53,305 nt of DNA, from IMG/VR virus record IMGVR_UViG_3300043256_000158, positions 1 through 53,305 of that record; one strand, given 5' to 3'. The notes beneath the pieces are model-generated. The model was not told where the DNA came from, searched no databases, and worked only from the letters and a program-made list of their open reading frames with translations. Below are positions 7,742 through 36,630 of this stretch, one piece after another (position 1 is the first letter of the stretch; the number at the start of each line of letters is the position of its first letter). Origin of the DNA: a virus (taxonomy: Duplodnaviria; Caudoviricetes). The position numbers and the translations under genes are program-made.

Positions 7742-8623
7742 TTATTCGCTGATGTAAATTTCGGCATACTCTTCTCGGCCTTCCTTGGTGTCCTCGTAGA
7801 GCCCCTGTTCAACAAACCGCTTGAACGCGCCCTGTTGAACCTCTTTTGGCACCTTTGACCATGCCGTCTTGCCGTTGCCGCCACCCCCGGGCCGGGCACC
7901 CTCGACAGCCGGAGCTTGCCGGCGCCGCTGGTTGCCGAAACGGTCGGGGAATTCCTTCTTCACCTCCGCCGTAATGCGCTTGAAGTAGGCTTCGCCGGTC
8001 AGTCCGGTACGCGCCACCTGCTTGACGATCGAGTCGGCAAAGGCCGCCATTTTGGGATCGAACCCATCATCGTTCTGGTCATACCAGGAATTATCGGGCA
8101 GCCAGGTATCATAAGCCGGATCGTTGACAGGCGCCGGTTTGGTCTCCTGCTTGGCCTCGGCCTTGACTTCCTGCTCCAAGTCTTTCATCTCGCCCTTGGC
8201 ACGGCGGTAGGCATCGGGATCGCCTTCCTCCACCGCCTTGTCGGCTTTGCTCTCCAGTTCCTTGAGGGCCTTCTGATAGGCGCGCTGGTCGGCCTTGGTC
8301 AGATGGGTTCCCAAGTCCTTGATGGTCTGCCCCAGGGTGCCGATCTGCCGGTTCTGCTTGGCTATCTCGGCGCTCTGCTTGGCTATCTCGGCCTTGAGTA
8401 TCTTGTCGCCACGGTCCTTCAGATATTCGTTGCGCTCGGTGAACGTCTTGGCGTCGAGCCAGGTCCCACCGCCGCTGTCATCCCACTCCTCCTCGGGCCG
8501 CCAGCCCATCTTGCGGGCTTCGGTCTCGTGCGAGTCGGCCTGCGCGTTGTCGGCCTGCTGTTGCTGGTCCTGGTTCTGGTCTTGGTCTTGCGTCTGATCT
8601 TGGGCTTCGCTCGTATCGCTCAT
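7742..8623 (-). CDS. Capsid scaffolding protein
   Basis: EARKMGWRPEEEW motif, long coiled coil, acidic Q/D N-terminus, position. Confidence 0.8.
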   Translation of the reverse strand: MSDTSEAQDQTQDQDQNQDQQQQADNAQADSHETEARKMGWRPEEEWDDSGGGTWLDAKTFTERNEYLKDRGDKILKAEIAKQSAEIAKQNRQIGTLGQTIKDLGTHLTKADQRAYQKALKELESKADKAVEEGDPDAYRRAKGEMKDLEQEVKAEAKQETKPAPVNDPAYDTWLPDNSWYDQNDDGFDPKMAAFADSIVKQVARTGLTGEAYFKRITAEVKKEFPDRFGNQRRRQAPAVEGARPGGGGNGKTAWSKVPKEVQQGAFKRFVEQGLYEDTKEGREEYAEIYISE

Positions 8624-8637
8624 CTCATTTCCTCATG

Positions 8638-8663
8638 AAAAAGCCCCGCACATCAGGCGGGGC
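8638..8663 (-). terminator. Intrinsic terminator upstream of scaffold gene
   Basis: GCCCCGC-N7-GCGGGGC then TTTTT. Confidence 0.65.
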
Positions 8664-8665
8664 CG

Positions 8666-8694
8666 TTGCTATCTTGACTGGAATATGCTAAATT
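8666..8694 (+). promoter_or_regulatory. Sigma70-type promoter for tRNA-like RNA copy A
   Basis: TTGCTA-17 bp-TAAATT with extended TG; predicted start ~8701. Confidence 0.6.
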
Positions 8695-8700
8695 ATCAGT

Positions 8701-8849
8701 GCTGCGGCAGCGGGGAAAGCAGACCCGCTCGGTTATCGGATAAAGTTCTAGACTTTAGCCGGTCGGCATTTGGGATAGGTGAAGCCGCGACGGCGGTGAT
8801 GTACGCAACGACAATTACGCCGAGCCGGAGTAGCGCCCGGCCCGCAGCA
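8701..8849 (+). ncRNA. tRNA-like structured RNA, copy A
   Basis: 7-bp GCTGCGG/CCGCAGC stem, D-like arm, T-like arm; 27-nt exact match and covarying arm with 33339-33478. Confidence 0.75.
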
Positions 8850-8851
8850 TC

Positions 8852-9247
8852 TCATGTCAGCACCGCCAGTATCTCCTTGTCATGGACCACCCGGATCAGG
8901 TCCGTAGGATCGGCCTCGCGCGTGATGCCGGCGTACTTCGATATCATCACCCGATCGCCAAGCTCCGGCTTGCGACCTTTCCAGTCCGGCAATGTAAAGG
9001 CATTGCCCCCACAGGCCAGCAAAGTCCCCTCCGTGGCAGCCATCTGATTCCGGTCGCGGCGCTCCTGTGGGATAAAGATGCCGCCGGAGGTGACTTCCTC
9101 CTTCGGGTCGAGGCGCACCACGCACTTGAACTCGACTGGCTCGATGCCGGTGTCGTTGATGTCCTCAGGCGCCCAATCCACGGGCATTCTAGTAGCCGGA
9201 ATGTCCGTCTTCACTGTCTTGAACTTCAGACTGACTCTCTTGCCCAT
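8852..9247 (-). CDS. GroES-like co-chaperonin
   Basis: IEPVEFKCVV, TSGGIFIP, GTLLACG, GDRVMISKYAG, EILAVL match the Cpn10 pattern. Confidence 0.85.
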   Translation of the reverse strand: MGKRVSLKFKTVKTDIPATRMPVDWAPEDINDTGIEPVEFKCVVRLDPKEEVTSGGIFIPQERRDRNQMAATEGTLLACGGNAFTLPDWKGRKPELGDRVMISKYAGITREADPTDLIRVVHDKEILAVLT

Positions 9248-9473: not shown

Positions 9474-9802
9474 AGTCTCACCTCGTCCACGGCATCAATC
9501 GCCGCTATGGCCTCAACCCAATAAGTAGCCCATGCCGGCTGGATTGGATAAACAATTGCCACTGCATTGTTACCGGCAAGACAGGGATGATTTGGATGTC
9601 CAGTCGTGATCTGATCGGCGTTCACTCTCTTTGATTCACAAATTGCCTTCGCAACTTTAGTGATACGCTCCTCTTTTGGTGTTCGCGGTTCATGTGCCAC
9701 ACGAACAAGCCTGAAGAGTTCCTTCAATGCTACCGTGACTGCCTCATGTGCTGCTTTTGGCGACGGTAAGTTTTTTTCCTTCAATATCGGATTTGCGCTC
9801 AT
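9458..9802 (-). CDS. Hypothetical protein (AT-richer insertion)
   Basis: ORF filling gap after portal; start uncertain. Confidence 0.45.
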   Translation of the reverse strand: MSANPILKEKNLPSPKAAHEAVTVALKELFRLVRVAHEPRTPKEERITKVAKAICESKRVNADQITTGHPNHPCLAGNNAVAIVYPIQPAWATYWVEAIAAIDAVDEVRLCAQD

Positions 9803-11993
9803 TTGCCTCTCTCGCATCCATGGCCTTGCCAACTTCCAATCGGCACCGCAATTGCTCGCAAGCCTCGTCGCTCATGATCTTCATCGCCTCAAGTTCGATC
9901 TTATCAGAAGCCGCTTCAGCACTGGCCAAGTTAAGAATGGTTTTGGACTGAGATTCCGCAGCCTGGGCCAGCAATTTGCGCACTTCCGCCTTAACCTTCC
10001 CGGCTTCAGCCTCAGCTTTCATGCCACCAATCTGAAGTTCCTGGGCCTTGATCTCCAGCTCTTTCTTCTTGATCTCGATCTCGTCCGCGGCCTGGGCGAT
10101 GCCCGGATCGGGCGGCGGCTCATCGACCAGCAGTTCGTCGATATCCGCCACACCCACGGCACCGAAGATGCGCCGTCGCACACCCGAGGGGTCCACATAG
10201 GGGTCATCACGGTAGCCCTCCAGGAATTGCGCCTGCACCAAACGCTGGCCTTCCGTGACCATGTTGGGATCGGCCACGGGCAGGATATCCAGATCATCGA
10301 AGTTGTAGTCGTCCGGCGCGATCGCCTCGGGCTCATCCAGCAACGTGAAATACGTATCGGGCTCCAGATACAGCCTGTTGAGCCGGGCCAGCTTCTTGAA
10401 TTCGGACCTGAGCGAGCGGAACAGGCGCTTGTAAATGGCGGAGAACACCTTCATGCCCTGCTCGATGCGGGCTCTTGTGCGTCCCTCGCCTTCACCCGGC
10501 GGGCCTTCGTCACCAGTCATCACGTCCTTGACCGAGGTAATGTCCCGCGCCGCCTCAATCAGCAGCCCCAAAAGCTGGAACAGGACTGGCGACGGCCCTG
10601 GCCAGTCCATCTTAACGATATTGTCCCTGATCGCACCCCCGACGGAAATAACCCGCTTGAATTCACCAGGCCGGAAACGCGAATCCCCGCCCTTGATACG
10701 CATCGCCGCGCCGATGAAGCCCCCGCCCATGTTCTGCAAAGTGCCCGCGTCCAGCATGCGGTTGATCGAGCCGTTGATGGCCTCGCTCATGGGCCTCAAG
10801 AGCGAGCCGAAGCCGATATCGTAGAAAGAGCCGTCGAAAGCCGGGATGAAGCCGAACTTGGTGAAATACTTCGCGCCCTTGATGCGGGTGACCTTGTTCC
10901 CATCCCAGGTTACGGATTCGTCATCGAAGCGCGCCACAACTCGGACCGTCTTGCCGGTCTCCTTGTGAACCATGACGATGTAGGGCTCAGGATAGCCGTC
11001 CTCGTCCAAATCCTCCAGGCGGTGCTGCTCAAGGAATTCGTGGGGGCTGTCCTCATCGTTCGGCTCGGAACCCGCCGGCTGGCCCATGTCGAACTCGATG
11101 AATCTTCCATCCCGCATGCGCTCCTCGACCTCATGGGGATAGAGGCGGGTCACATGCGTAGCGCGCGGGCAGGTATCAAGCGACTTGGTGTCGTAATGGA
11201 CCACCAAATCATCGGGCAGCACGAGCTCGGAGACGTTCCGCCCAAGCGAGGGACTGAAATATGTCTTCCGGAATACACAGCCCAAGATCGGCAAGACATG
11301 CAGGAGCCGGTCGGTTTCCTCCTCCCACTCGACCATCTCATCGAGCAACTGATAGGACATATGGCGCCCGACCCGATCGGCGCGCTGCTTCTTGGCGCCG
11401 GGTGAAACTTTCCATTGCTGCTCGGGAGACTGTTGCTGGGCCTGGGGGTCTTGCTGCTCACCCATACCATTGGCAGGGGGCTGACCTATACTTTCGGGTA
11501 GGGCCCTGCCATCTTGCGAGGCAGCCTGGCCACCATTTGCACCCGGCAAACCAGGCTGCCCCTGTGACTGCTCCAGCGGCACCCCATCGTCATTGCCCCG
11601 CACCCGGCCCTTGACCACATCCGGGCCATTGATGATCGCCGGATAAGCCCTGGCGGCAAACTGGATGGCCGCGATGGTGAGCAACGGATATTTAATGTTG
11701 GCCGCTTTGGGCCAGGGAAAGTTCTTCTCCTCAACCACCTGCTTGGCCAACTTCATGGCCTCGTCGGTGGCCTCCTGCCAGTCCGAGCGGCTCTCCAAGT
11801 CAACCTGGAACTCGCGCAGCACCTTCTGCCCCAAGCGGCCCCGTTCCTCGTCGCCCATCTCCTCGGCGATGTTGTCCGAATCGATCAGCTCGTACAGACG
11901 CTTGCGGGAGGCGGCGGGCGTACGCTTGGGAGCGGATTCGCGCCAGTGGTAAGGCTTGGGGTCGCTCAGGACGGCTTTGGCAGTATTAGGCAT
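9744..11993 (-). CDS. Portal protein (P22-like podovirus type)
   Basis: 749 aa; KNFPWPKAANIKYP, DAGTLQN, ILPVADPN, C-terminal coiled coil; follows terminase. Confidence 0.9.
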   Translation of the reverse strand: MPNTAKAVLSDPKPYHWRESAPKRTPAASRKRLYELIDSDNIAEEMGDEERGRLGQKVLREFQVDLESRSDWQEATDEAMKLAKQVVEEKNFPWPKAANIKYPLLTIAAIQFAARAYPAIINGPDVVKGRVRGNDDGVPLEQSQGQPGLPGANGGQAASQDGRALPESIGQPPANGMGEQQDPQAQQQSPEQQWKVSPGAKKQRADRVGRHMSYQLLDEMVEWEEETDRLLHVLPILGCVFRKTYFSPSLGRNVSELVLPDDLVVHYDTKSLDTCPRATHVTRLYPHEVEERMRDGRFIEFDMGQPAGSEPNDEDSPHEFLEQHRLEDLDEDGYPEPYIVMVHKETGKTVRVVARFDDESVTWDGNKVTRIKGAKYFTKFGFIPAFDGSFYDIGFGSLLRPMSEAINGSINRMLDAGTLQNMGGGFIGAAMRIKGGDSRFRPGEFKRVISVGGAIRDNIVKMDWPGPSPVLFQLLGLLIEAARDITSVKDVMTGDEGPPGEGEGRTRARIEQGMKVFSAIYKRLFRSLRSEFKKLARLNRLYLEPDTYFTLLDEPEAIAPDDYNFDDLDILPVADPNMVTEGQRLVQAQFLEGYRDDPYVDPSGVRRRIFGAVGVADIDELLVDEPPPDPGIAQAADEIEIKKKELEIKAQELQIGGMKAEAEAGKVKAEVRKLLAQAAESQSKTILNLASAEAASDKIELEAMKIMSDEACEQLRCRLEVGKAMDAREANERKSDIEGKKLTVAKSST

Positions 11994-12961: not shown

Positions 12962-14251
12962 TCAGTACCCGCTGATGACGTTGCGGTCGTGCTCGGCTCG
13001 GTCGTCATGCCAATCATGCTGCTCTCCGTAGTCAACGACATCCGGCAGCCCCATGGCCAGATATCGGAAGGCATCGGCCCCGTGGCTGTGCTCGTCATGG
13101 CGCGGCCGGGGCTTGAAGGTGCTCATCTTCTCGTCCCACTCGGCCCGGTACTGCCGCAAGTGTTCAAGTCCGAGCTCACATTTCCCGACATCGAAATAGC
13201 ACCGCGGCAACAGGTTCCGCGCCGCGTTGATCCCATCCTCGATGGGACTGCGCGGCAGGACCCGCAAGTCCCGCGCGCCCAGGCTGTGCAATGTCGAGAG
13301 ACGGCTGCGGCCAGTGCCCCACTCATCGGCATCGGCATCGTGGGGCAGAATGGTGTCCATGTAGGTGTAGGGCTTCTCACGTAGCACCTTAACGTAGTGC
13401 TCGGCACCTACGCCCGTGGCCTCGTAGAAGTCGATGACTCGCACCTCGCGCCCGATGAGCTGGACGAACCAGATGCTCGTCGCATCACCTATACCCAGAT
13501 CCCAGGCCGTGACCACCGGATGCGCTGGGTCCCAGGGCACATTCCCGATCCGCCCTTCCCGCTCGGCCGCGGCCATCTGCTTGCCGTAGTACGCCCCGGC
13601 CAGCGCAGCCAGGAACGAGCATTCGTACTCCTGCTCGTATTCGTCCTCGCTCATCTCCCGGCGCGCGGCGTTCAGCACCGACTCGGACAGAATACCGGTC
13701 TCGCTTGCACGGTAGATCGCCGTGTACCAGTTGGGATTCTTACAGCCCTGGTCGTAACGGTCCCAGAAAGCATTGCGGCCCTTGGGGGTGCCAATGAAAA
13801 TAGCCCAGCCGTCACGGTCTGAAAGACACGGTATCAGTATCTCGGTCCACACCCGGGGGCGCATCTGGGCGTATTCGTCGAGCACCACGCCGTCCAGATA
13901 CACCCCGCGCAGAGCATCCGGATTGTCAGCCCCGTACAGCCGCACCCGCCTGCCACCAGGTAGATCGACGCGCAACTCCGCCTCGTTGACCTTACGGCCC
14001 GGGATCGGCTCCGTGTAGTGCTTCAGGTAGTCCCAGGCGACATCCTTGGCCTGCTTGTAGAGCGGCGCCATGTAGGCGAAGCGCGGGCGTTCCTTGGTGC
14101 ACCCGATAGCGCGACGGATCAATTCGTTGATGCACAGGACCGTCTTGCCGAGACGGCGGTGCGAAACCAGAACCGAGCGATGTTTGAGATTGGCGTGTAT
14201 CTGGGCCTGAACCGTCCGCGGCCGGTACGGGATCGTGATTAATTGTCCCAT
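12962..14251 (-). CDS. terL: Terminase large subunit
   Basis: HRRLGKT Walker A, VVLDEYAQM Walker B, GTPKG, WDLG and SHGADAFRY nuclease motifs. Confidence 0.95.
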   Translation of the reverse strand: MGQLITIPYRPRTVQAQIHANLKHRSVLVSHRRLGKTVLCINELIRRAIGCTKERPRFAYMAPLYKQAKDVAWDYLKHYTEPIPGRKVNEAELRVDLPGGRRVRLYGADNPDALRGVYLDGVVLDEYAQMRPRVWTEILIPCLSDRDGWAIFIGTPKGRNAFWDRYDQGCKNPNWYTAIYRASETGILSESVLNAARREMSEDEYEQEYECSFLAALAGAYYGKQMAAAEREGRIGNVPWDPAHPVVTAWDLGIGDATSIWFVQLIGREVRVIDFYEATGVGAEHYVKVLREKPYTYMDTILPHDADADEWGTGRSRLSTLHSLGARDLRVLPRSPIEDGINAARNLLPRCYFDVGKCELGLEHLRQYRAEWDEKMSTFKPRPRHDEHSHGADAFRYLAMGLPDVVDYGEQHDWHDDRAEHDRNVISGY

Positions 14252-32247: not shown

Positions 32248-32446
32248 ACCGAAACGCAAACCAGACGACAAAACGCAGTCCGAACGCTTCAAGGAAAAAG
32301 CCCGCGAGATCGAAGCGGACGAAACCGGCGAAGTGTTTGAGGAAGCGTTCAAGAAGATTGTTCCGTCAAAACTTCCGGCTTCGGCAAAATCACCATCATC
32401 GGTTCCAAAGCCTCATAAAAAGGACCGATGCGCGGATCGTTCATAA
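32240..32446 (+). CDS. Small IS-associated protein
   Basis: QSERFKEKAREIEADE, coupled to transposase. Confidence 0.65.
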   Translation: MAKPKRKPDDKTQSERFKEKAREIEADETGEVFEEAFKKIVPSKLPASAKSPSSVPKPHKKDRCADRS

Positions 32447-33110
32447 GTTTCTTCTTGATGATGAATGTGCATACGTCTGCGATTTGCAGCGCCTTTGACT
32501 CTGGCTTCCCCGCGAAGTGGACACCTTCACGTATCCGTTCGAATGGAAAGTAAGTCAGCAATGGTGCGGTTTCCCTGACCCATTTCGGATCACGATAAAG
32601 TTGGTGAGCCTTTCTGGTTAGCGCGCGGATAGCGTCGTTGTCCTCACCAATCAAAAGCGTGATTTCATTACTCGCTGCTTTGCGCATAAACTCTTCTATC
32701 GACTCGCAAAACCGCGCGTAGGTATCTGAATAAAGCTGTAATTCGATTTGTCTCGCAGTGAACTTTCCCGGGTCAAAGAAACGCCAAGCATGTTTCCGAT
32801 CTTGATACCCGAACGGTACGGGTATTCCGAATTTTTCGGGGATAGCGGCTAAATCAGCGAGGATTTCAAGTCTCTTTTCTAGCGACCATTTATCGCGCTT
32901 GAAATATCGTCCGCCGCTCCATAATTCCATTGCGTGAAAGATAAAGTCGTCCCAATCCCCTTTCGGGATATGTTTTTGAACGAGTGCGTCGATATACTCC
33001 TCAACGGGAATCAACTGCTCGTCGGCATGAACGATAACACCACCAATCACAATGAACGGCTCTTGCTGGGCGTTAAACAATCCAGCATCGTCAAAATAGG
33101 TAAGGCGCAT
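32349..33110 (-). CDS. DUF3800-like protein (IS passenger)
   Basis: YFDDAG...FIVIGG, FHA, SKALQIAD pattern; AT-richer. Confidence 0.75.
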   Translation of the reverse strand: MRLTYFDDAGLFNAQQEPFIVIGGVIVHADEQLIPVEEYIDALVQKHIPKGDWDDFIFHAMELWSGGRYFKRDKWSLEKRLEILADLAAIPEKFGIPVPFGYQDRKHAWRFFDPGKFTARQIELQLYSDTYARFCESIEEFMRKAASNEITLLIGEDNDAIRALTRKAHQLYRDPKWVRETAPLLTYFPFERIREGVHFAGKPESKALQIADVCTFIIKKKLMNDPRIGPFYEALEPMMVILPKPEVLTEQSS

Positions 33111-33217
33111 CAACCGTTGTCCTCTTAAGGGCACGCCCGCGATGCTTTTTACATTCCGACTTGCGGGGGGCTTCATCTTACACCCCCGTCCCTGGGTACG
33201 GGAAGTATAATATCGCC

Positions 33218-33309
33218 TTCTTTATGCCCAGGTCGATCACGGCGGCCTGTTGGACGGTACAGGCCCCGAGCAGCAGAAACAGGAGGACGCCGGGGAAAAA
33301 GTTGAGCAT
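33218..33309 (-). pseudogene. 5' fragment of IS-disrupted lipoprotein
   Basis: GAAGGAG SD, MLNFFPGVLLFLLLGA-C lipobox. Confidence 0.8.
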
Positions 33310-33338
33310 ATCGTTCTCCTTCGTGTTAGGATCCGGGT

Positions 33339-33478
33339 GCTGCGGCGGCGTGGAAAGCAGACACGCGTGGCCTGAAGTTGGGACTATTCGAGATGGGATT
33401 GCCGCCCACAGGGTTGCCAGTGGTGGAAACCGAGAGGCCACAGCCCAACGAAGCCGGAGTAGCGCCCGGCCCGCAGCA
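33339..33478 (+). ncRNA. tRNA-like structured RNA, copy B
   Basis: Same scaffold as 8701-8849; extended -10 TGtTAGGAT at the same distance upstream. Confidence 0.75.
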
Positions 33479-33515
33479 CGCCAGGATATGACCCGGATAC
33501 CCCTAGTGGTCGCAA

Positions 33516-33633: not shown

Positions 33634-34038
33634 TCACTCGTAAGTCCAAAGCCGCCTCCGCAAATCGTCGAGATGCAAATAGCGCCCCCTATAAGGGCCG
33701 TGTTGTAATGGGCCGAACCCCAGCATGTCTGCGGCCAAAGCTGCGCTTATCAGTGTCACAACCGCCGGGCTGGCGACCTTGATGTCCGCCGCGCGGCCTG
33801 TCGTGTGAGGGCCACTGCTCCCGGTCTTTTTCTTGCTCACCAGCACGTTGTATTCCGGGCAGCGATACCCCGAATTCACCACCATGGGCCGCCCGAACAG
33901 GTTCCTTGTCCGCTGTAGCTTGTCCATAAATTGCGGGTCCATCTTGGCAAGCCCGCCGCAGGAGCACAGGCCCTTGGCAAAACCCTTGCAGGCGAATTCT
34001 CGCTCGGAGAAGTTGGCATAGTCGGACCAGTCGATCAT
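33634..34038 (-). CDS. Peptidase M15A-type endolysin
   Basis: NFSEREFAC, NSGYRCPEYN, HTTGRAAD, LHLD. Confidence 0.88.
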   Translation of the reverse strand: MIDWSDYANFSEREFACKGFAKGLCSCGGLAKMDPQFMDKLQRTRNLFGRPMVVNSGYRCPEYNVLVSKKKTGSSGPHTTGRAADIKVASPAVVTLISAALAADMLGFGPLQHGPYRGRYLHLDDLRRRLWTYE

Positions 34039-34346
34039 TTCCGCCGCGCCTTTTCCGCCAACAGTTCGTCGATCTTTTGCTGCACCTCCAAAAGCTGCTT
34101 TTCCCAAGCCGCTTGGCTTACCCTGTCCCCAGCGTTCTTCGTTTGCTCGACCAGGAACTTCAGCTTGATGAATTCCGTCCTCCAGCGATCAAGGGTGTTC
34201 TCGGCAGCCATTGCGAAAGTGTGCCGGGGCGCCCACGGCACATAGTCTTTAAGCACGGCCACCGCACCCCCGAAGGCGACAATTGTCGTGGCCATCAAGG
34301 CGATACGCAGCCAGCCGTTGCGTTTAGAACGTGTTTTCTCAGCCAT
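34035..34346 (-). CDS. Holin-like membrane protein
   Basis: Single N-terminal TM, coupled to endolysin. Confidence 0.5.
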   Translation of the reverse strand: MAEKTRSKRNGWLRIALMATTIVAFGGAVAVLKDYVPWAPRHTFAMAAENTLDRWRTEFIKLKFLVEQTKNAGDRVSQAAWEKQLLEVQQKIDELLAEKARRK

Positions 34347-35037: not shown

Positions 35038-36630
35038 TTACAGTTCAGCGCTCGCTGTCCAGTGAAAGGCTTTCAATTCGTCAGCCGCACCGCTTGTGGC
35101 AAAAGCAGCATGGCACCCGCTATCGCCAATATCCTCCAGCGTAATATCGAAATCCGCTCCACTCGTAAGGTCACGGTATTTGCCACTTGCTCCCGTGCTG
35201 CTATAGCCGGTCATGGTAGGTGCGGCACGCTTTACAGTTCTGAAAGAAATACTCAAACTGCCATTCGCCACGGGATCGGTAAACCGAATGGCCCCAGCCT
35301 CAGTTGAGGTGCCGACAGCAACTCCCTGGTTATAAGACTGCTCCCAGAACCGCTGGCAAAGGATCAGTTCCTCTCCATGCAAGCGCCGCTGGAATGCAGT
35401 GGCGTTCGGACCGAACTCAAGCTGAATATCGGTGATGTAGATGAAATCCCCGATCGTGGTGGTTACGTCATCAATCCAGATGAACACGGCTATGTTGGTC
35501 GCGCTTGCCGTGTCGATCGAAATGTTCTCGATCTTGAAGGTCTGGAACGATGCCGTGAGAGCGGCTAGGCTGGCGGGTGTATTCTCATAGGTCCAGTTGG
35601 TCACTAGCGTTGGATTGGTTCCCGCCGCTTCCCAGGCGCTTACCGGGTCCGAAGTCACGGCGTCGGCAGTGGAATCCCACGCGATCACCGCCGCGCGCAG
35701 ATTGGCAATGGATGTGCCGGTGCGCCGTGCCTTGAAGGAGAGGCTGCACACGCCACCGATCAAGGCCTCTGCGTCCTTGGCCTCGATAATTTGTAGAATG
35801 CCGAACTTCTTGTTGGCCGTCTCCACATCCAGCTTGATCGCCGCATAGGAGCCGGTCGGGACGGTCGTTGTCTCCTGGCTTACATCGGCTGCATCGTTGC
35901 CGTCCGAGAGAAGCACCCAATGATCGAGCAGAACGGTATCATCGTTGTTGGCCGGCGTCGTCGCGCTGGTAAAGCTGGTCCCGCGCTGGGTAATCCGGAA
36001 ATCGCCGTTGATGAGAACATTGGTAACCGTCGTGGTCTTGGTGGCAACCGGGGTCAAAAGCTGGAAATTCGTGCCATCGTATTTCCACATATGCCAAGCG
36101 CCGGACTCCAAATCTCCGTCTGCCAAGTCGAGGTCGTGATTCTTCTTGATGGTCTTGGCGCCTAAGGCACTGGCACCCGATTGCCCACCCGTAATATTGA
36201 GAGTCGCCGATCCGGTATTGGTGAAATTAACTTTTGCGGTAAAGGTATCCCCATCGGCATAGGCCGATATGGTACGGTTTACCGTGAGCGCATAGGCGTT
36301 AGCCGAGCCGGTGGTGTCCAGAGTGGAACGGAACGTATCATCGGCCCAATTATCCACCCCGCCCCTGACCGGATCGGCAGACCAAATCTGTACGTCGGCC
36401 GAGTCCGAAAGCGTGACCTTGTAGTCCTGATCCTTCAGGAAGATGGCACCAAAGCGGCCAGCGGAATCCGCTACTACGGGGTTGGCGTTTGCCGAAGTCA
36501 GTGCATCGTCGCTGTAAGTGTCCAAATTGGACGACGTGCCGCTTTCGAAGAATTCCAGCTTTGCGCCAGCCTCAACGCCGCCGGAACTGTCCTGCACCTC
36601 GACGCGAGGCAGGTGAAAAAGATTGGCCAT
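35038..36630 (-). CDS. Tail fibre/spike with N-terminal virion-binding domain
   Basis: GAKLEFFESGTS..NANPVVADSAGRF start; NVLINGDFRITQRG and EELILCQRFW domain. Confidence 0.85.
   Translation of the reverse strand: MANLFHLPRVEVQDSSGGVEAGAKLEFFESGTSSNLDTYSDDALTSANANPVVADSAGRFGAIFLKDQDYKVTLSDSADVQIWSADPVRGGVDNWADDTFRSTLDTTGSANAYALTVNRTISAYADGDTFTAKVNFTNTGSATLNITGGQSGASALGAKTIKKNHDLDLADGDLESGAWHMWKYDGTNFQLLTPVATKTTTVTNVLINGDFRITQRGTSFTSATTPANNDDTVLLDHWVLLSDGNDAADVSQETTTVPTGSYAAIKLDVETANKKFGILQIIEAKDAEALIGGVCSLSFKARRTGTSIANLRAAVIAWDSTADAVTSDPVSAWEAAGTNPTLVTNWTYENTPASLAALTASFQTFKIENISIDTASATNIAVFIWIDDVTTTIGDFIYITDIQLEFGPNATAFQRRLHGEELILCQRFWEQSYNQGVAVGTSTEAGAIRFTDPVANGSLSISFRTVKRAAPTMTGYSSTGASGKYRDLTSGADFDITLEDIGDSGCHAAFATSGAADELKAFHWTASAEL

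What the first reader, a model, noticed from the sequence alone, without database searches (positions are those of the whole stretch)
8666..8849. Two copies of a promoter-driven tRNA-shaped RNA scaffold carrying different ~90-nt cargo
Seen: 8701-8849 and 33339-33478 share a 7-bp acceptor-like stem GCTGCGG/CCGCAGC plus A, then a 2-nt linker. Both have a D-like arm with identical loop GAAAGCAGA and a compensatory change (GCGGG/CCCGC vs GCGTG/CACGC). Both end in an identical 27-mer forming a T-like arm GCCGG-AGTAGCGC-CCGGC that abuts the acceptor stem. In place of the anticodon arm each has an unrelated multi-hairpin insert (94 and 85 nt). Each has an extended -10 (TGcTAAATT, TGtTAGGAT) exactly 4 nt before GTGCTGCGG and is antisense to the late operon. 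Neither has TTCG or an encoded CCA, so they are not tRNAs. Inference: a constant scaffold displaying variable cargo, acting as a decoy, antitoxin, sponge or guide and possibly matured by RNase P/Z. I cannot assign it to a named family.
Basis: partly seen in the sequence, partly recalled or inferred. Interest (0 to 1): 0.85.

Follow-up and report, generated by a model that had tools for sequence, protein, structure and literature searches.

The report
tRNA-shaped phage RNA, swappable arm
The two look-alike elements belong to a large, apparently undescribed family of small structured phage RNAs that keep a near-constant tRNA-shaped core but carry a different insert in almost every phage; what they do is still unknown.

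Summary
It is also the tip of a large family.

**Family size.** A covariance model built here finds the same core in more than 160 distinct places. These are uncultured virus contigs, prophages of several bacterial phyla, and 5 of 5 cultured phages examined (hosts Pseudomonas, Ochrobactrum, Synechococcus).

**Structure.** Three helices are supported by covariation:
- a closing stem of at least 7 bp;
- a 5-bp hairpin with loop GAAAGCAGA;
- a 5-bp hairpin with a loop centred on UAGCG.

The junction linkers (2, about 1, variable, 0 nt) match tRNA topology.

**Transcription.** A -10 box sits 5-7 nt upstream of the closing stem in 23 of 68 members. G·U pairs outnumber A·C pairs 24 to 2.

**The insert ("cargo").** It falls into 145 unrelated groups among 160 distinct elements. 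It is exchanged between otherwise identical scaffolds. Compensatory changes preserve its helices, and it is sometimes tRNA-derived.

**What it is not.** There is no match to Rfam 15, tRNA, tmRNA or YrlA. No protein gene is consistently adjacent or co-occurring (DUF3800, reverse transcriptase and Ro were tested).

**Best reading (about 0.45).** A stable, independently transcribed scaffold RNA that displays an exchangeable functional arm. Function is untested and no expression data could be found.

**Verdict.** A real, new RNA family. Interest is high.

The parts
8666..8694 (+). Copy 1 promoter-like region: TTGCTA (8666-8671), 17-nt spacer, extended -10 TGcTAAATT (8686-8694)
   Evidence: Read. 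The strict consensus scan did not call it. Across the family, TANNNT boxes end 5-7 nt before the 7-bp stem in 23 of 68 members, against about 0.5 per offset elsewhere.
8699..8850 (+). Copy 1 RNA, 152 nt. Layout: P1 5' strand 8699/8701-8707; linker CA 8708-8709; P2 GCGGG 8710-8714, loop GAAAGCAGA 8715-8723, CCCGC 8724-8728; variable arm 8729-8822; A 8823; P3 GCCGG 8824-8828, loop AGTAGCGC 8829-8836, CCGGC 8837-8841; P1 3' strand 8842-8848/8850
   Evidence: Model R1 scores it 92.8 bits, E 2e-13. Sequence. Helices supported by covariation.
8729..8822 (+). Copy 1 variable arm (cargo), 94 nt, predicted to form several hairpins
   Evidence: No match elsewhere in the window beyond chance; the best is 11 nt at E 0.86.
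33324..33332 (+). Copy 2 extended -10 box, TGtTAGGAT
   Evidence: Read. Family-wide -10 position.
33337..33479 (+). Copy 2 RNA, 143 nt. Layout: P1 5' strand 33337/33339-33345; linker CG 33346-33347; P2 GCGTG 33348-33352, loop 33353-33361, CACGC 33362-33366; variable arm 33367-33451; A 33452; P3 33453-33470; P1 3' strand 33471-33477/33479
   Evidence: Model R1 scores it 100.1 bits, E 1.2e-14. Sequence.
33367..33451 (+). Copy 2 variable arm (cargo), 85 nt, unrelated to that of copy 1
   Evidence: the best other match in the window is 12 nt at E 0.19.
8642..8664 (-). Intrinsic terminator of the - strand operon, just outside copy 1. It is not part of the RNA, but it shows that the element lies in a - strand intergenic gap.

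Best explanation
Both elements are genes for a discrete, independently transcribed small RNA of about 100-330 nt. It belongs to a large family carried by tailed phages and prophages.

The RNA folds into a four-way junction with tRNA topology:
- a closing stem of at least 7 bp that pairs the 5' and 3' ends;
- a 2-nt linker;
- a 5-bp hairpin with the near-invariant loop GAAAGCAGA;
- a variable arm where a tRNA has its anticodon arm;
- a conserved A;
- a 5-bp hairpin with the loop N-G/U-UAGCG-N, stacked directly on the closing stem.

I infer three things.
1. The constant core is a compact, nuclease-resistant platform. The two conserved loops probably meet as an elbow-like tertiary contact or form a docking site for a conserved host factor.
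2. Transcription starts at the closing stem. The 3' end is made by processing or trimming back to that stem, not by an intrinsic terminator.
3. The variable arm is the phage-specific working part (a regulator, decoy or aptamer). It is exchanged between phages by recombination within the conserved halves.

Shown here: the family, the helices, the strand, the promoter position, the diversity of the arm, its exchange, and selection on its structure.

Inferred only: the tertiary fold, the processing, the stability, trans action, and any target.
For: **Family**
- Model R1 hits the window twice, at 100.1 and 92.8 bits.
- It hits 5 of 5 cultured phages examined: Ochrobactrum POI1126, Pseudomonas Orimi01, PotUPM1 and Persinger, and Synechococcus Ssp-JY40.
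- It gives 27 matches in 100 genome loci and 17 in 30 further loci.

**Helices**
- In 94 distinct sequences, 93.2% of cells are paired, against 71.9% in shuffles (0 of 500 shuffles reach it) and 31-42% with slid partners.
- The inner 7 pairs of the closing stem are 98-100% paired and use all four Watson-Crick types.
- All 5 pairs of the second hairpin covary.
- The first hairpin covaries in the 3'-anchored set: U-A 32, G-C 5, C-G 3 of 40. GCGCU/AGCGC variants also occur.

**Stem length.** In 40 members the closing stem is 7 bp in 16, 8 in 10, 9 in 8, 10 or more in 5, and 6 in 1.

**Strand and transcription**
- G·U to A·C is 24:2.
- TANNNT boxes end 5-7 nt upstream of the stem in 23 of 68 members.

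**Discrete unit.** One member lies between two tRNA genes in a 17-tRNA array on the same strand.

**Variable arm**
- 145 unrelated groups among 160 distinct elements, 138 of them singletons.
- Identical 30-nt 5' halves, 93-100% identical 3' halves and an 84-91% identical upstream flank occur with unrelated arms.
- Within the largest arm family (6 members), arm helices keep pairing through changes on both sides, next to conserved unpaired stretches.

**No dedicated protein partner**
- The best neighbour cluster covers 3 of 35 elements, then 9 of 164.
- Among virus records carrying the RNA, DUF3800 is in 0 of 39, reverse transcriptase in 2 of 40, and TROVE in 1 of 40.
Against: - No expression data: no RNA run holds the window. 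Transcript ends and stability are therefore unproven.
- Only 25 of 68 members have a -10 box 3-9 nt upstream. The rest may be read from further upstream.
- No target was found for any arm. Complementarity of the window's arms to the window is at chance level. Two conserved arm segments of phage PotUPM1 have no antisense site in that phage at up to 3 mismatches in 18. Two prophage arms have no host match better than E 0.3. All these tests have low power for short seed pairing.
- The near-invariance of the two loops across host phyla is not explained by a purely structural scaffold. It fits a conserved binding partner at least as well (see the first rival).
- The loops are unlike tRNA D and T loops, so use of tRNA enzymes is a guess.
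- The closing stem reaches 17-20 bp in two members, which does not fit a strict acceptor-stem mimic.
Confidence: 0.45

Rival explanations
1. The core is what matters. The two conserved loops and the junction form the binding site for a conserved host factor, for example a tRNA-processing or translation component. The RNA then acts as a sponge, decoy or adaptor for that factor. The variable arm is a tolerated or only loosely used expansion, as in the peripheral parts of tmRNA or RNase P RNA.
For: - Loop GAAAGCAGA is present in 94 of 96 members, linker CG in 95 of 96, UAGCG is near invariant, and an A precedes the second hairpin in about 90%. This holds across phages of Pseudomonas, Ochrobactrum and Synechococcus and prophages in MAGs labelled Phycisphaerae, Chthoniobacteraceae and Desulfovibrionaceae.
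- No phage protein co-occurs, so a partner would have to come from the host.
- Arms share no sequence.
- There is tRNA-array and tRNA-adjacent context.
Against: - Arm helices are kept by compensatory change, and arm single strands are conserved within an arm family.
- An arm is always present; the shortest elements are 98-103 nt, leaving about 40 nt of arm.
- Arms are exchanged as units, which suggests selection on what they carry.
- No candidate factor is identified.
Confidence: 0.22
2. It is a cis-acting 5' leader of longer transcripts: a processive antitermination element or a transcript stabiliser that acts on the RNA polymerase or the mRNA that carries it.
For: - The -10 box places the start at the closing stem.
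- Only 8 of 66 members have a terminator-like site within 120 nt downstream.
- In some temperate Pseudomonas phages it lies beside the repressor gene, with same-strand genes downstream. The two largest neighbour clusters include an annotated cI repressor (8 of 164, upstream) and an annotated SSB (9 of 164).
- One variant (L026) keeps the 5' half and the closing stem around a small ORF.
Against: - In the window both copies point against every neighbouring gene with a family hit. For copy 2, the ORFs with family hits or of large size from 33.6 kb to the end of the record are on the other strand.
- One member is a spacer-flanked unit inside a tRNA array.
- Pairing of the 5' and 3' ends defines a closed domain.
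- Orientation relative to neighbours is mixed.
Confidence: 0.1
3. It is a new class of small ribozyme, for example one that cuts itself to make its own end, with the variable arm as a peripheral helix.
For: - About 20 near-invariant unpaired nucleotides sit around a compact junction.
- An optional variable helix, phage context and tRNA neighbourhood are, from my recall, typical of small self-cleaving ribozymes.
- The lack of terminators leaves 3'-end formation unexplained.
Against: - No match to any ribozyme family in Rfam 15, even at E up to 10. The only twister hit is on the opposite strand at E 4.2, 11.4 bits against a 37.6-bit gathering score.
- The conserved nucleotides sit in hairpin loops rather than in junction strands.
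- Nothing here tests catalysis.
Confidence: 0.08
4. It acts as DNA: a recombination site or a single-strand origin.
For: - In records that also have a tyrosine integrase, it lies within 3.5 kb of the integrase in 8 of 22, against 14.5% expected (P 0.009).
- In phage Persinger it starts about 10 nt after the integrase gene.
Against: - Wobble pairs are strand-specific (24 G·U to 2 A·C), and a -10 box is positioned upstream.
- The closing-stem sequence differs from member to member, unlike a recombinase core site.
- 18 of 40 RNA-bearing records, the window included, have no integrase match.
Confidence: 0.03

Closest known systems
Phage T4 stable RNAs, species 1 and 2 (rnaC, rnaD)
   Same: - Small stable phage RNAs of about 120-140 nt whose function is unknown (recalled); the record calls them small, stable RNAs next to the tRNA genes.
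- rnaC folds with paired ends and a long internal arm.
- rnaC carries GAGTAGCGT twice, which matches the second-loop motif of this family.
   Different: - Model R1 finds nothing in the T4 region at E up to 1.
- rnaC has a canonical T arm.
- The shared 9-mer sits in other structural contexts.
- rnaC and rnaD are conserved as whole sequences among T4-like phages: 680 of 801 matching records cover at least 80% of the query. They do not have a hypervariable arm.
tmRNA
   Same: The topology is the same: paired ends, a T-arm position abutting the acceptor-like stem, and a large insert where the anticodon arm would be (topology recalled).
   Different: - ARAGORN finds no tmRNA in the window or in 44 family loci.
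- There is no canonical T loop.
- The stem sequence is variable, so there is no fixed identity pair.
- It is present in up to two copies per phage, with unrelated inserts.
Bacterial and phage Y RNAs (YrlA)
   Same: They are modular: a constant protein-binding part plus an effector part that mimics tRNA. They are found in phages and some are processed by tRNA enzymes (PMC4201824, passages read). Six of 96 arms here hold a true T arm, and one arm is a near-complete tRNA body.
   Different: - The YrlA motif GNCGAAN0-1G is absent from the 5' parts of both copies.
- There is no Rfam match.
- A TROVE (Ro) gene occurs in only 1 of 40 RNA-bearing virus records and not in the window.
- In these cases the tRNA-like part is the cargo, not the constant part.
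Phage immunity RNAs c4 (P1/P7) and CI (P4)
   Same: From recall: small structured phage RNAs matured by RNase P, whose variable loops set immunity specificity. Here the RNA is often in the lysogeny region, near a repressor in 8 of 164 elements and near an integrase in 8 of 22 records, and it carries a lineage-specific arm.
   Different: - No Rfam match.
- No self-target found.
- The arm here is 40-250 nt and structured, not a pair of short loops.
- The window phage has no integrase match.
Engineered tRNA scaffold for expressing recombinant RNA
   Same: From recall: a tRNA body with the anticodon arm replaced by an arbitrary RNA accumulates stably in bacteria. This family has the same layout and an exchangeable arm.
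   Different: The family is natural. Its core loops are not tRNA loops, and stability and processing are untested.
DUF3800-associated RNA motifs
   Same: Copy 2 lies 163 nt from a DUF3800 gene on the other strand. Such motifs are reported near DUF3800 genes in either orientation (PMC5737381, passages read).
   Different: DUF3800 is found in 0 of 39 other RNA-bearing virus records and next to 1 of 164 elements, the window's own. There is no Rfam match.

Membership tests
tRNA | Recognised by tRNA gene finders or the tRNA covariance model | tested here: not met
   ARAGORN finds 0 genes in the window. Rfam gives no tRNA match at the elements, even at E up to 10.
tRNA | Cloverleaf junction: 7-bp acceptor stem, 2-nt linker, T arm abutting the acceptor 3' strand | tested here: met
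   Read. The closing stem is never shorter than 6 bp and is 7 bp in 16 of 40 members. The linker is CG in 95 of 96.
tRNA | Canonical D and T loops and an anticodon arm | tested here: not met
   The loops are GAAAGCAGA and N-G/U-UAGCG-N. The anticodon-arm position holds 40-250 nt of unrelated sequence.
tmRNA | tRNA-like domain plus tag reading frame, found by ARAGORN | tested here: not met
   None in the window or in 44 family loci.
YrlA / Y RNA | Rfam model match; 5' motif GNCGAAN0-1G; Ro (TROVE) gene nearby | tested here: not met
   No Rfam match. The motif (from PMC4201824) is absent. TROVE is in 1 of 40 records and 0 in the window.
Retron or DGR non-coding RNA | Reverse transcriptase gene in the same element | tested here: not met
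   RVT_1 is in 2 of 40 RNA-bearing virus records and not in the window.
Known self-cleaving ribozymes, riboswitches and phage sRNAs in Rfam 15 | Covariance-model match | tested here: not met
   At gathering score: 0 matches in the window, and only tRNAs in 16 family loci. At E up to 10 nothing relevant appears, including for a short-arm member.
DUF3800-associated RNA motifs | Consistent proximity to DUF3800 genes | tested here: not met
   0 of 39 records; 1 of 164 elements.
T4 species 1 / species 2 RNA | Detectable homology to rnaC or rnaD | tested here: not met
   No R1 match in the T4 tRNA region at E up to 1. Only a shared 9-mer.
c4 / CI immunity RNA | Loops complementary to sites in the phage's own early transcripts | tested here: inconclusive
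   No match above chance, but pairings of 7-9 nt cannot be told from chance with these tests.
Substrate of RNase P, RNase Z or the CCA-adding enzyme | Cleavage or extension by these enzymes | not testable with these tools
   Context only: one member inside a tRNA array. No CCA is encoded after the stem.

The most novel reading that the evidence does not exclude
Phages carry a natural RNA display chassis. A tRNA-shaped core provides folding, stability and perhaps host-enzyme maturation. Into it they swap, by recombination in the 30-nt conserved halves, a very large repertoire of RNA modules. These modules would be decoys, aptamers or regulators aimed at host defence or host RNA machinery, and some are built from tRNA bodies. 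This would be an RNA-level counterpart of protein accessory-gene cassettes and a natural precedent for the engineered tRNA scaffold.
Probability: 0.25. Interest if true: 0.9.

Novelty: new variant of a known kind. Interest (0 to 1): 0.78.

Why it matters
If the reading holds, this is a common structured RNA class of tailed phages and prophages that has so far gone unannotated.

Its organisation is unusual. The tRNA-topology core is almost invariant, while the arm is exchangeable and differs in nearly every phage.

It would matter in three ways:
- It adds an RNA layer to phage accessory functions, with many members lying in lysogeny modules.
- It offers a natural, evolution-tested scaffold for expressing RNAs in bacteria.
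- The arms themselves are a large untapped library of phage-selected RNA modules.

The question is directly testable, because cultured phage-host pairs carry the RNA.

Tried and rejected
**Known families and partners**
- Rfam at gathering score and at E up to 10, on both copies, 16 family loci and a short-arm member: nothing relevant.
- ARAGORN: nothing at the elements.
- A conserved neighbour gene: none. The best cluster covers 3 of 35, then 9 of 164 elements.
- DUF3800 link: rejected.
- Retron/DGR and Ro links: rejected.
- T4 rnaC/rnaD homology: not detected.

**Distribution**
- Host housekeeping gene: unlikely. The flanks in bacterial genomes look like phage: 8 of 10 flanking proteins have PHROG hits, including tail fibre, terminase, endolysin, primosomal protein and DnaB. 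Only 2 of 121 genomes of one host's family match, but few candidates were scored per genome, so sensitivity was low.
- E. coli: no blastn match in 5,426 genomes.
- Phage database search with the 1.6-kb flank: no match.

**Targets of the arm**
- Arm complementarity to the phage's own genome or to host genomes: nothing above chance.
- Two RNA-duplex scans of the window timed out without output.

**Other tests**
- A GC-phase test of neighbour orientation was unreliable. It miscalled the strand next to copy 1, so I did not use it beyond noting that orientations look mixed.
- Sequencing runs: no RNA holder is listed. The single DNA holder may be the source sample.

**Literature**
- Four searches found no description of this RNA. 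One search covered the motif letters themselves: the two longest motifs had 0 occurrences among the 20 of 67 papers listed, and the shorter ones hit only unrelated papers.
- Supplementary files, such as the motif drawings of PMC5737381, could not be seen.
Full report
**1. The observation**

- The 27-mer AGCCGGAGTAGCGCCCGGCCCGCAGCA occurs exactly twice in the window, at 8823-8849 and 33452-33478. None of 100 shuffles gave a match.
- The 5' 30-mer occurs exactly twice, at 8699-8728 and 33337-33366.
- Each copy reads: a stem GCTGCGG/CCGCAGC, extendable to 9 bp; a 2-nt linker; a hairpin with loop GAAAGCAGA whose stem differs by one compensatory pair; an unrelated insert of 94 or 85 nt; an A; the hairpin GCCGG-AGTAGCGC-CCGGC; and the 3' strand of the stem.
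- An extended -10 box ends 4 nt before GTGCTGCGG in both copies.

The window is a complete 53,305-bp virus record. The neighbouring genes with family hits are on the - strand, so both copies are antisense to them:
- Cpn10-like 8852-9247
- portal 9744-11993
- large terminase 12962-14251
- M15 endolysin 33634-34107
- DUF3800 32349-33176
- tail fibre 35038-36630

The folding energy of the two copies alone is unremarkable: z = -2.74 and -1.10.

**2. It is a large family**

Exact-pattern scans were the starting point.
- The 3' 25-mer found 13 virus-contig stretches.
- A 5' pattern found 23.

I built covariance model R1 from 40 members. Its results:
- The window's copies score 100.1 and 92.8 bits.
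- 27 matches in the first 100 genome loci and 17 in 30 further loci.
- 96 matches in 100 of the 112 virus loci. The other 12 were not searched.
- One match in each of 5 cultured phages reached by blastn: Ochrobactrum POI1126, Pseudomonas Orimi01, PotUPM1 and Persinger, and Synechococcus Ssp-JY40.

Distribution beyond phage records:
- In bacterial genomes the flanks are phage-like. Eight of 10 flanking proteins have PHROG hits, including tail fibre, terminase, endolysin, primosomal protein and DnaB.
- Only 2 of 121 genomes of one host's family match. Few candidates were scored per genome, so this is a weak negative.
- No blastn match in 5,426 E. coli genomes.

Copy number: among 10 whole records, 9 have one match and 1 has a second, weak one. 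Several partial loci and the window have two copies.

**3. Structure**

On the 3'-anchored alignment (40 sequences), 90% of cells pair; 0 of 500 shuffles reach this.

On the alignment anchored on the first hairpin (94 distinct sequences):
- 93.2% of cells pair, against 71.9% in shuffles and 31-42% with slid partners.
- The inner seven pairs of the closing stem are 98-100% paired and use all Watson-Crick types.
- All five pairs of the second hairpin covary.

The first hairpin covaries in the other set (U-A 32, G-C 5, C-G 3 of 40) and in the GCGCU/AGCGC variants. The alignment was fitted to the model, which leans towards the structure. The MAFFT alignment was not fitted.

The closing stem is 7 bp in 16 of 40 members, 8 in 10, 9 in 8, 10 or more in 5, and 6 in 1. 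Seven base pairs therefore acts as a floor.

Conserved unpaired positions:
- linker CG in 95 of 96;
- loop GAAAGCAGA in 94 of 96, the other two carrying a hairpin inserted inside it;
- second loop N-G/U-UAGCG-N;
- an A before the second hairpin in about 90%;
- often an A after the first hairpin.

The linker lengths (2, about 1, variable, 0 nt) are those of a tRNA cloverleaf, but neither loop resembles a D or T loop. That the two loops meet like a tRNA elbow is my inference from the stacking geometry. It is not a result.

**4. Strand and transcription**
- In the three helices, G·U pairs outnumber A·C pairs 24 to 2, and 4 to 1 in the smaller set.
- TANNNT boxes end 5, 6 or 7 nt before the 7-bp stem in 4, 14 and 5 of 68 members. 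About half of these have TG one base upstream. Other offsets show about 0.5 each.
- 43 of 68 members lack such a box.
- Only 8 of 66 have a terminator-like site within 120 nt downstream. The 3' end is therefore most likely made by processing or trimming; this is inferred.
- One member sits between tRNA-Ser and tRNA-Arg in a 17-tRNA array on the same strand, with about 10-nt spacers. Two others are followed by a tRNA gene.

**5. The variable arm**
- Total length runs from 98 to 327 nt. The median is 147.5 in the set.
- Among 160 distinct elements the arms form 145 unrelated groups: sizes 6, 4, 3, 3, 2, 2 and 2, plus 138 singletons.
- Elements from related Pseudomonas phages share the 30-nt 5' half exactly. 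Their 3' halves are 93-100% identical and their upstream 50-60 nt are 84-91% identical. Yet they carry unrelated arms and different downstream flanks. I read this as exchange of the arm as a unit.
- In the six-member arm family, arm helices keep pairing through changes on both sides, next to conserved unpaired stretches. The arm is therefore under selection.
- Six of 96 arms contain a true T arm.
- One arm scores 41.2 bits on Rfam's tRNA model. It lacks the outer acceptor pairs and four anticodon-loop positions.
- One variant keeps only the 5' half and the closing stem, around a small ORF.

**6. Context**

No neighbour gene is shared by more than 3 of 35, or 9 of 164, elements. The two largest clusters include an annotated SSB (phage Persinger) and an annotated cI repressor (phage PotUPM1).

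Among virus records carrying the RNA:
- DUF3800 is in 0 of 39. L157 was not held and so was not searched.
- Reverse transcriptase is in 2 of 40.
- TROVE is in 1 of 40.
- A tyrosine integrase is in 22 of 40, and in 16 of 23 records that are at least 90% complete. The window has none.

Where an integrase is present, the RNA lies within 3.5 kb of it in 8 of 22 records, against 14.5% expected (P 0.009). One of the eight rests on a weak integrase match.

The family is thus common in temperate phages and modestly enriched in the lysogeny region. In the window it sits in the late region.

**7. What it is not**
- Rfam 15 gives nothing at gathering score or at E up to 10.
- ARAGORN finds no tRNA or tmRNA at the elements.
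- The YrlA motif reported in PMC4201824 (passages read) is absent.
- T4's species 1 and 2 RNAs, fetched from the T4 record, are not matched by R1. rnaC does carry GAGTAGCGT twice and folds with paired ends.
- Four literature searches found no description. I read passages only of PMC4201824, PMC5737381, PMC11662646 and the preprint 10.64898/2026.09.22.753630. Supplements were closed, so a drawing of this motif in a supplement cannot be excluded.

**8. How it most likely works**

I commit, at about 0.45, to a stable scaffold RNA whose constant core folds into a tRNA-like L shape and whose arm is the exchangeable working part.
- Shown: the family, the helices, the strand, the promoter position, and the diversity, exchange and structural selection of the arm.
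- Inferred: the tertiary fold, 3' trimming to the stem, stability, action in trans, and any target.

Weighing against it:
- There are no expression data.
- No target was found (low power).
- The loops are more invariant than a purely structural role requires. This keeps the core-centred host-factor reading alive at about 0.22.

The other rivals are a cis-acting leader (0.10), a new ribozyme (0.08) and a DNA-level site (0.03). The evidence for and against each is given in the rival explanations.

**9. Verdict**

The element is a real structured RNA family that I could not place in any curated family or find in print. It is closest in kind to tRNA-shaped stable RNAs such as T4 species 1 RNA, tmRNA and YrlA. 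What is new is the near-invariant non-tRNA core combined with a cassette-like hypervariable arm.

Noticed in passing
window 32349-33176 (-): A DUF3800 gene (Pfam 39.6 bits) lies 163 nt from copy 2 on the other strand. DUF3800 genes are known to attract unrelated RNA motifs, but none of 39 other RNA-bearing virus records has one.
   Followed up: yes
window 8852-9247 (-): A Cpn10/GroES-like gene (Pfam 32.8 bits) sits between the portal gene and an acidic coiled-coil protein (7742-8623) that looks like a scaffolding protein. A co-chaperonin inside a head module is unusual.
   Followed up: partly
window 33178-33310 (-): A short ORF with a lipoprotein-type signal (MLNFFPGVLLFLLLGAC...) and a GGAGA ribosome site starts just past copy 2, downstream of the endolysin. 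It is possibly a spanin component.
   Followed up: no
L026:223-451 (-): A half-element: the 5' stem strand and first hairpin, then a small ORF of about 60 codons, then the 3' stem strand with no second hairpin (R1 37.6 bits).
   Followed up: partly
L005:10188-10393 (+) and two rows of alignment A3: A hairpin is inserted inside the GAAAGCAGA loop, after GAAAGC(A). The loop therefore tolerates a split at that point.
   Followed up: partly
L023:1717-1857 (-): The variable arm is a near-complete tRNA body (Rfam tRNA 41.2 bits) with a shortened anticodon loop, nested inside the scaffold.
   Followed up: yes
L148 (whole locus, 4636 bp): A phage-like array of 17 tRNA genes with the element embedded between tRNA-Ser and tRNA-Arg on the same strand.
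   Followed up: partly
L151:2909-3047 (-), phage T4 rnaC: T4 species 1 RNA contains GAGTAGCGT twice, the same core as the family's second loop. Chance or a shared recognition motif is not resolved.
   Followed up: partly
L155 and L214, upstream flanks: A segment of about 54 nt just upstream of the element in phage Orimi01 recurs at two places upstream of the element in L214 (98% and 84% identity). It is possibly a repeated operator or promoter block.
   Followed up: no
G158:C1:44724-45407: One RNA-bearing virus record also encodes a TROVE (Ro60-like) protein. It is the only one of 40.
   Followed up: no
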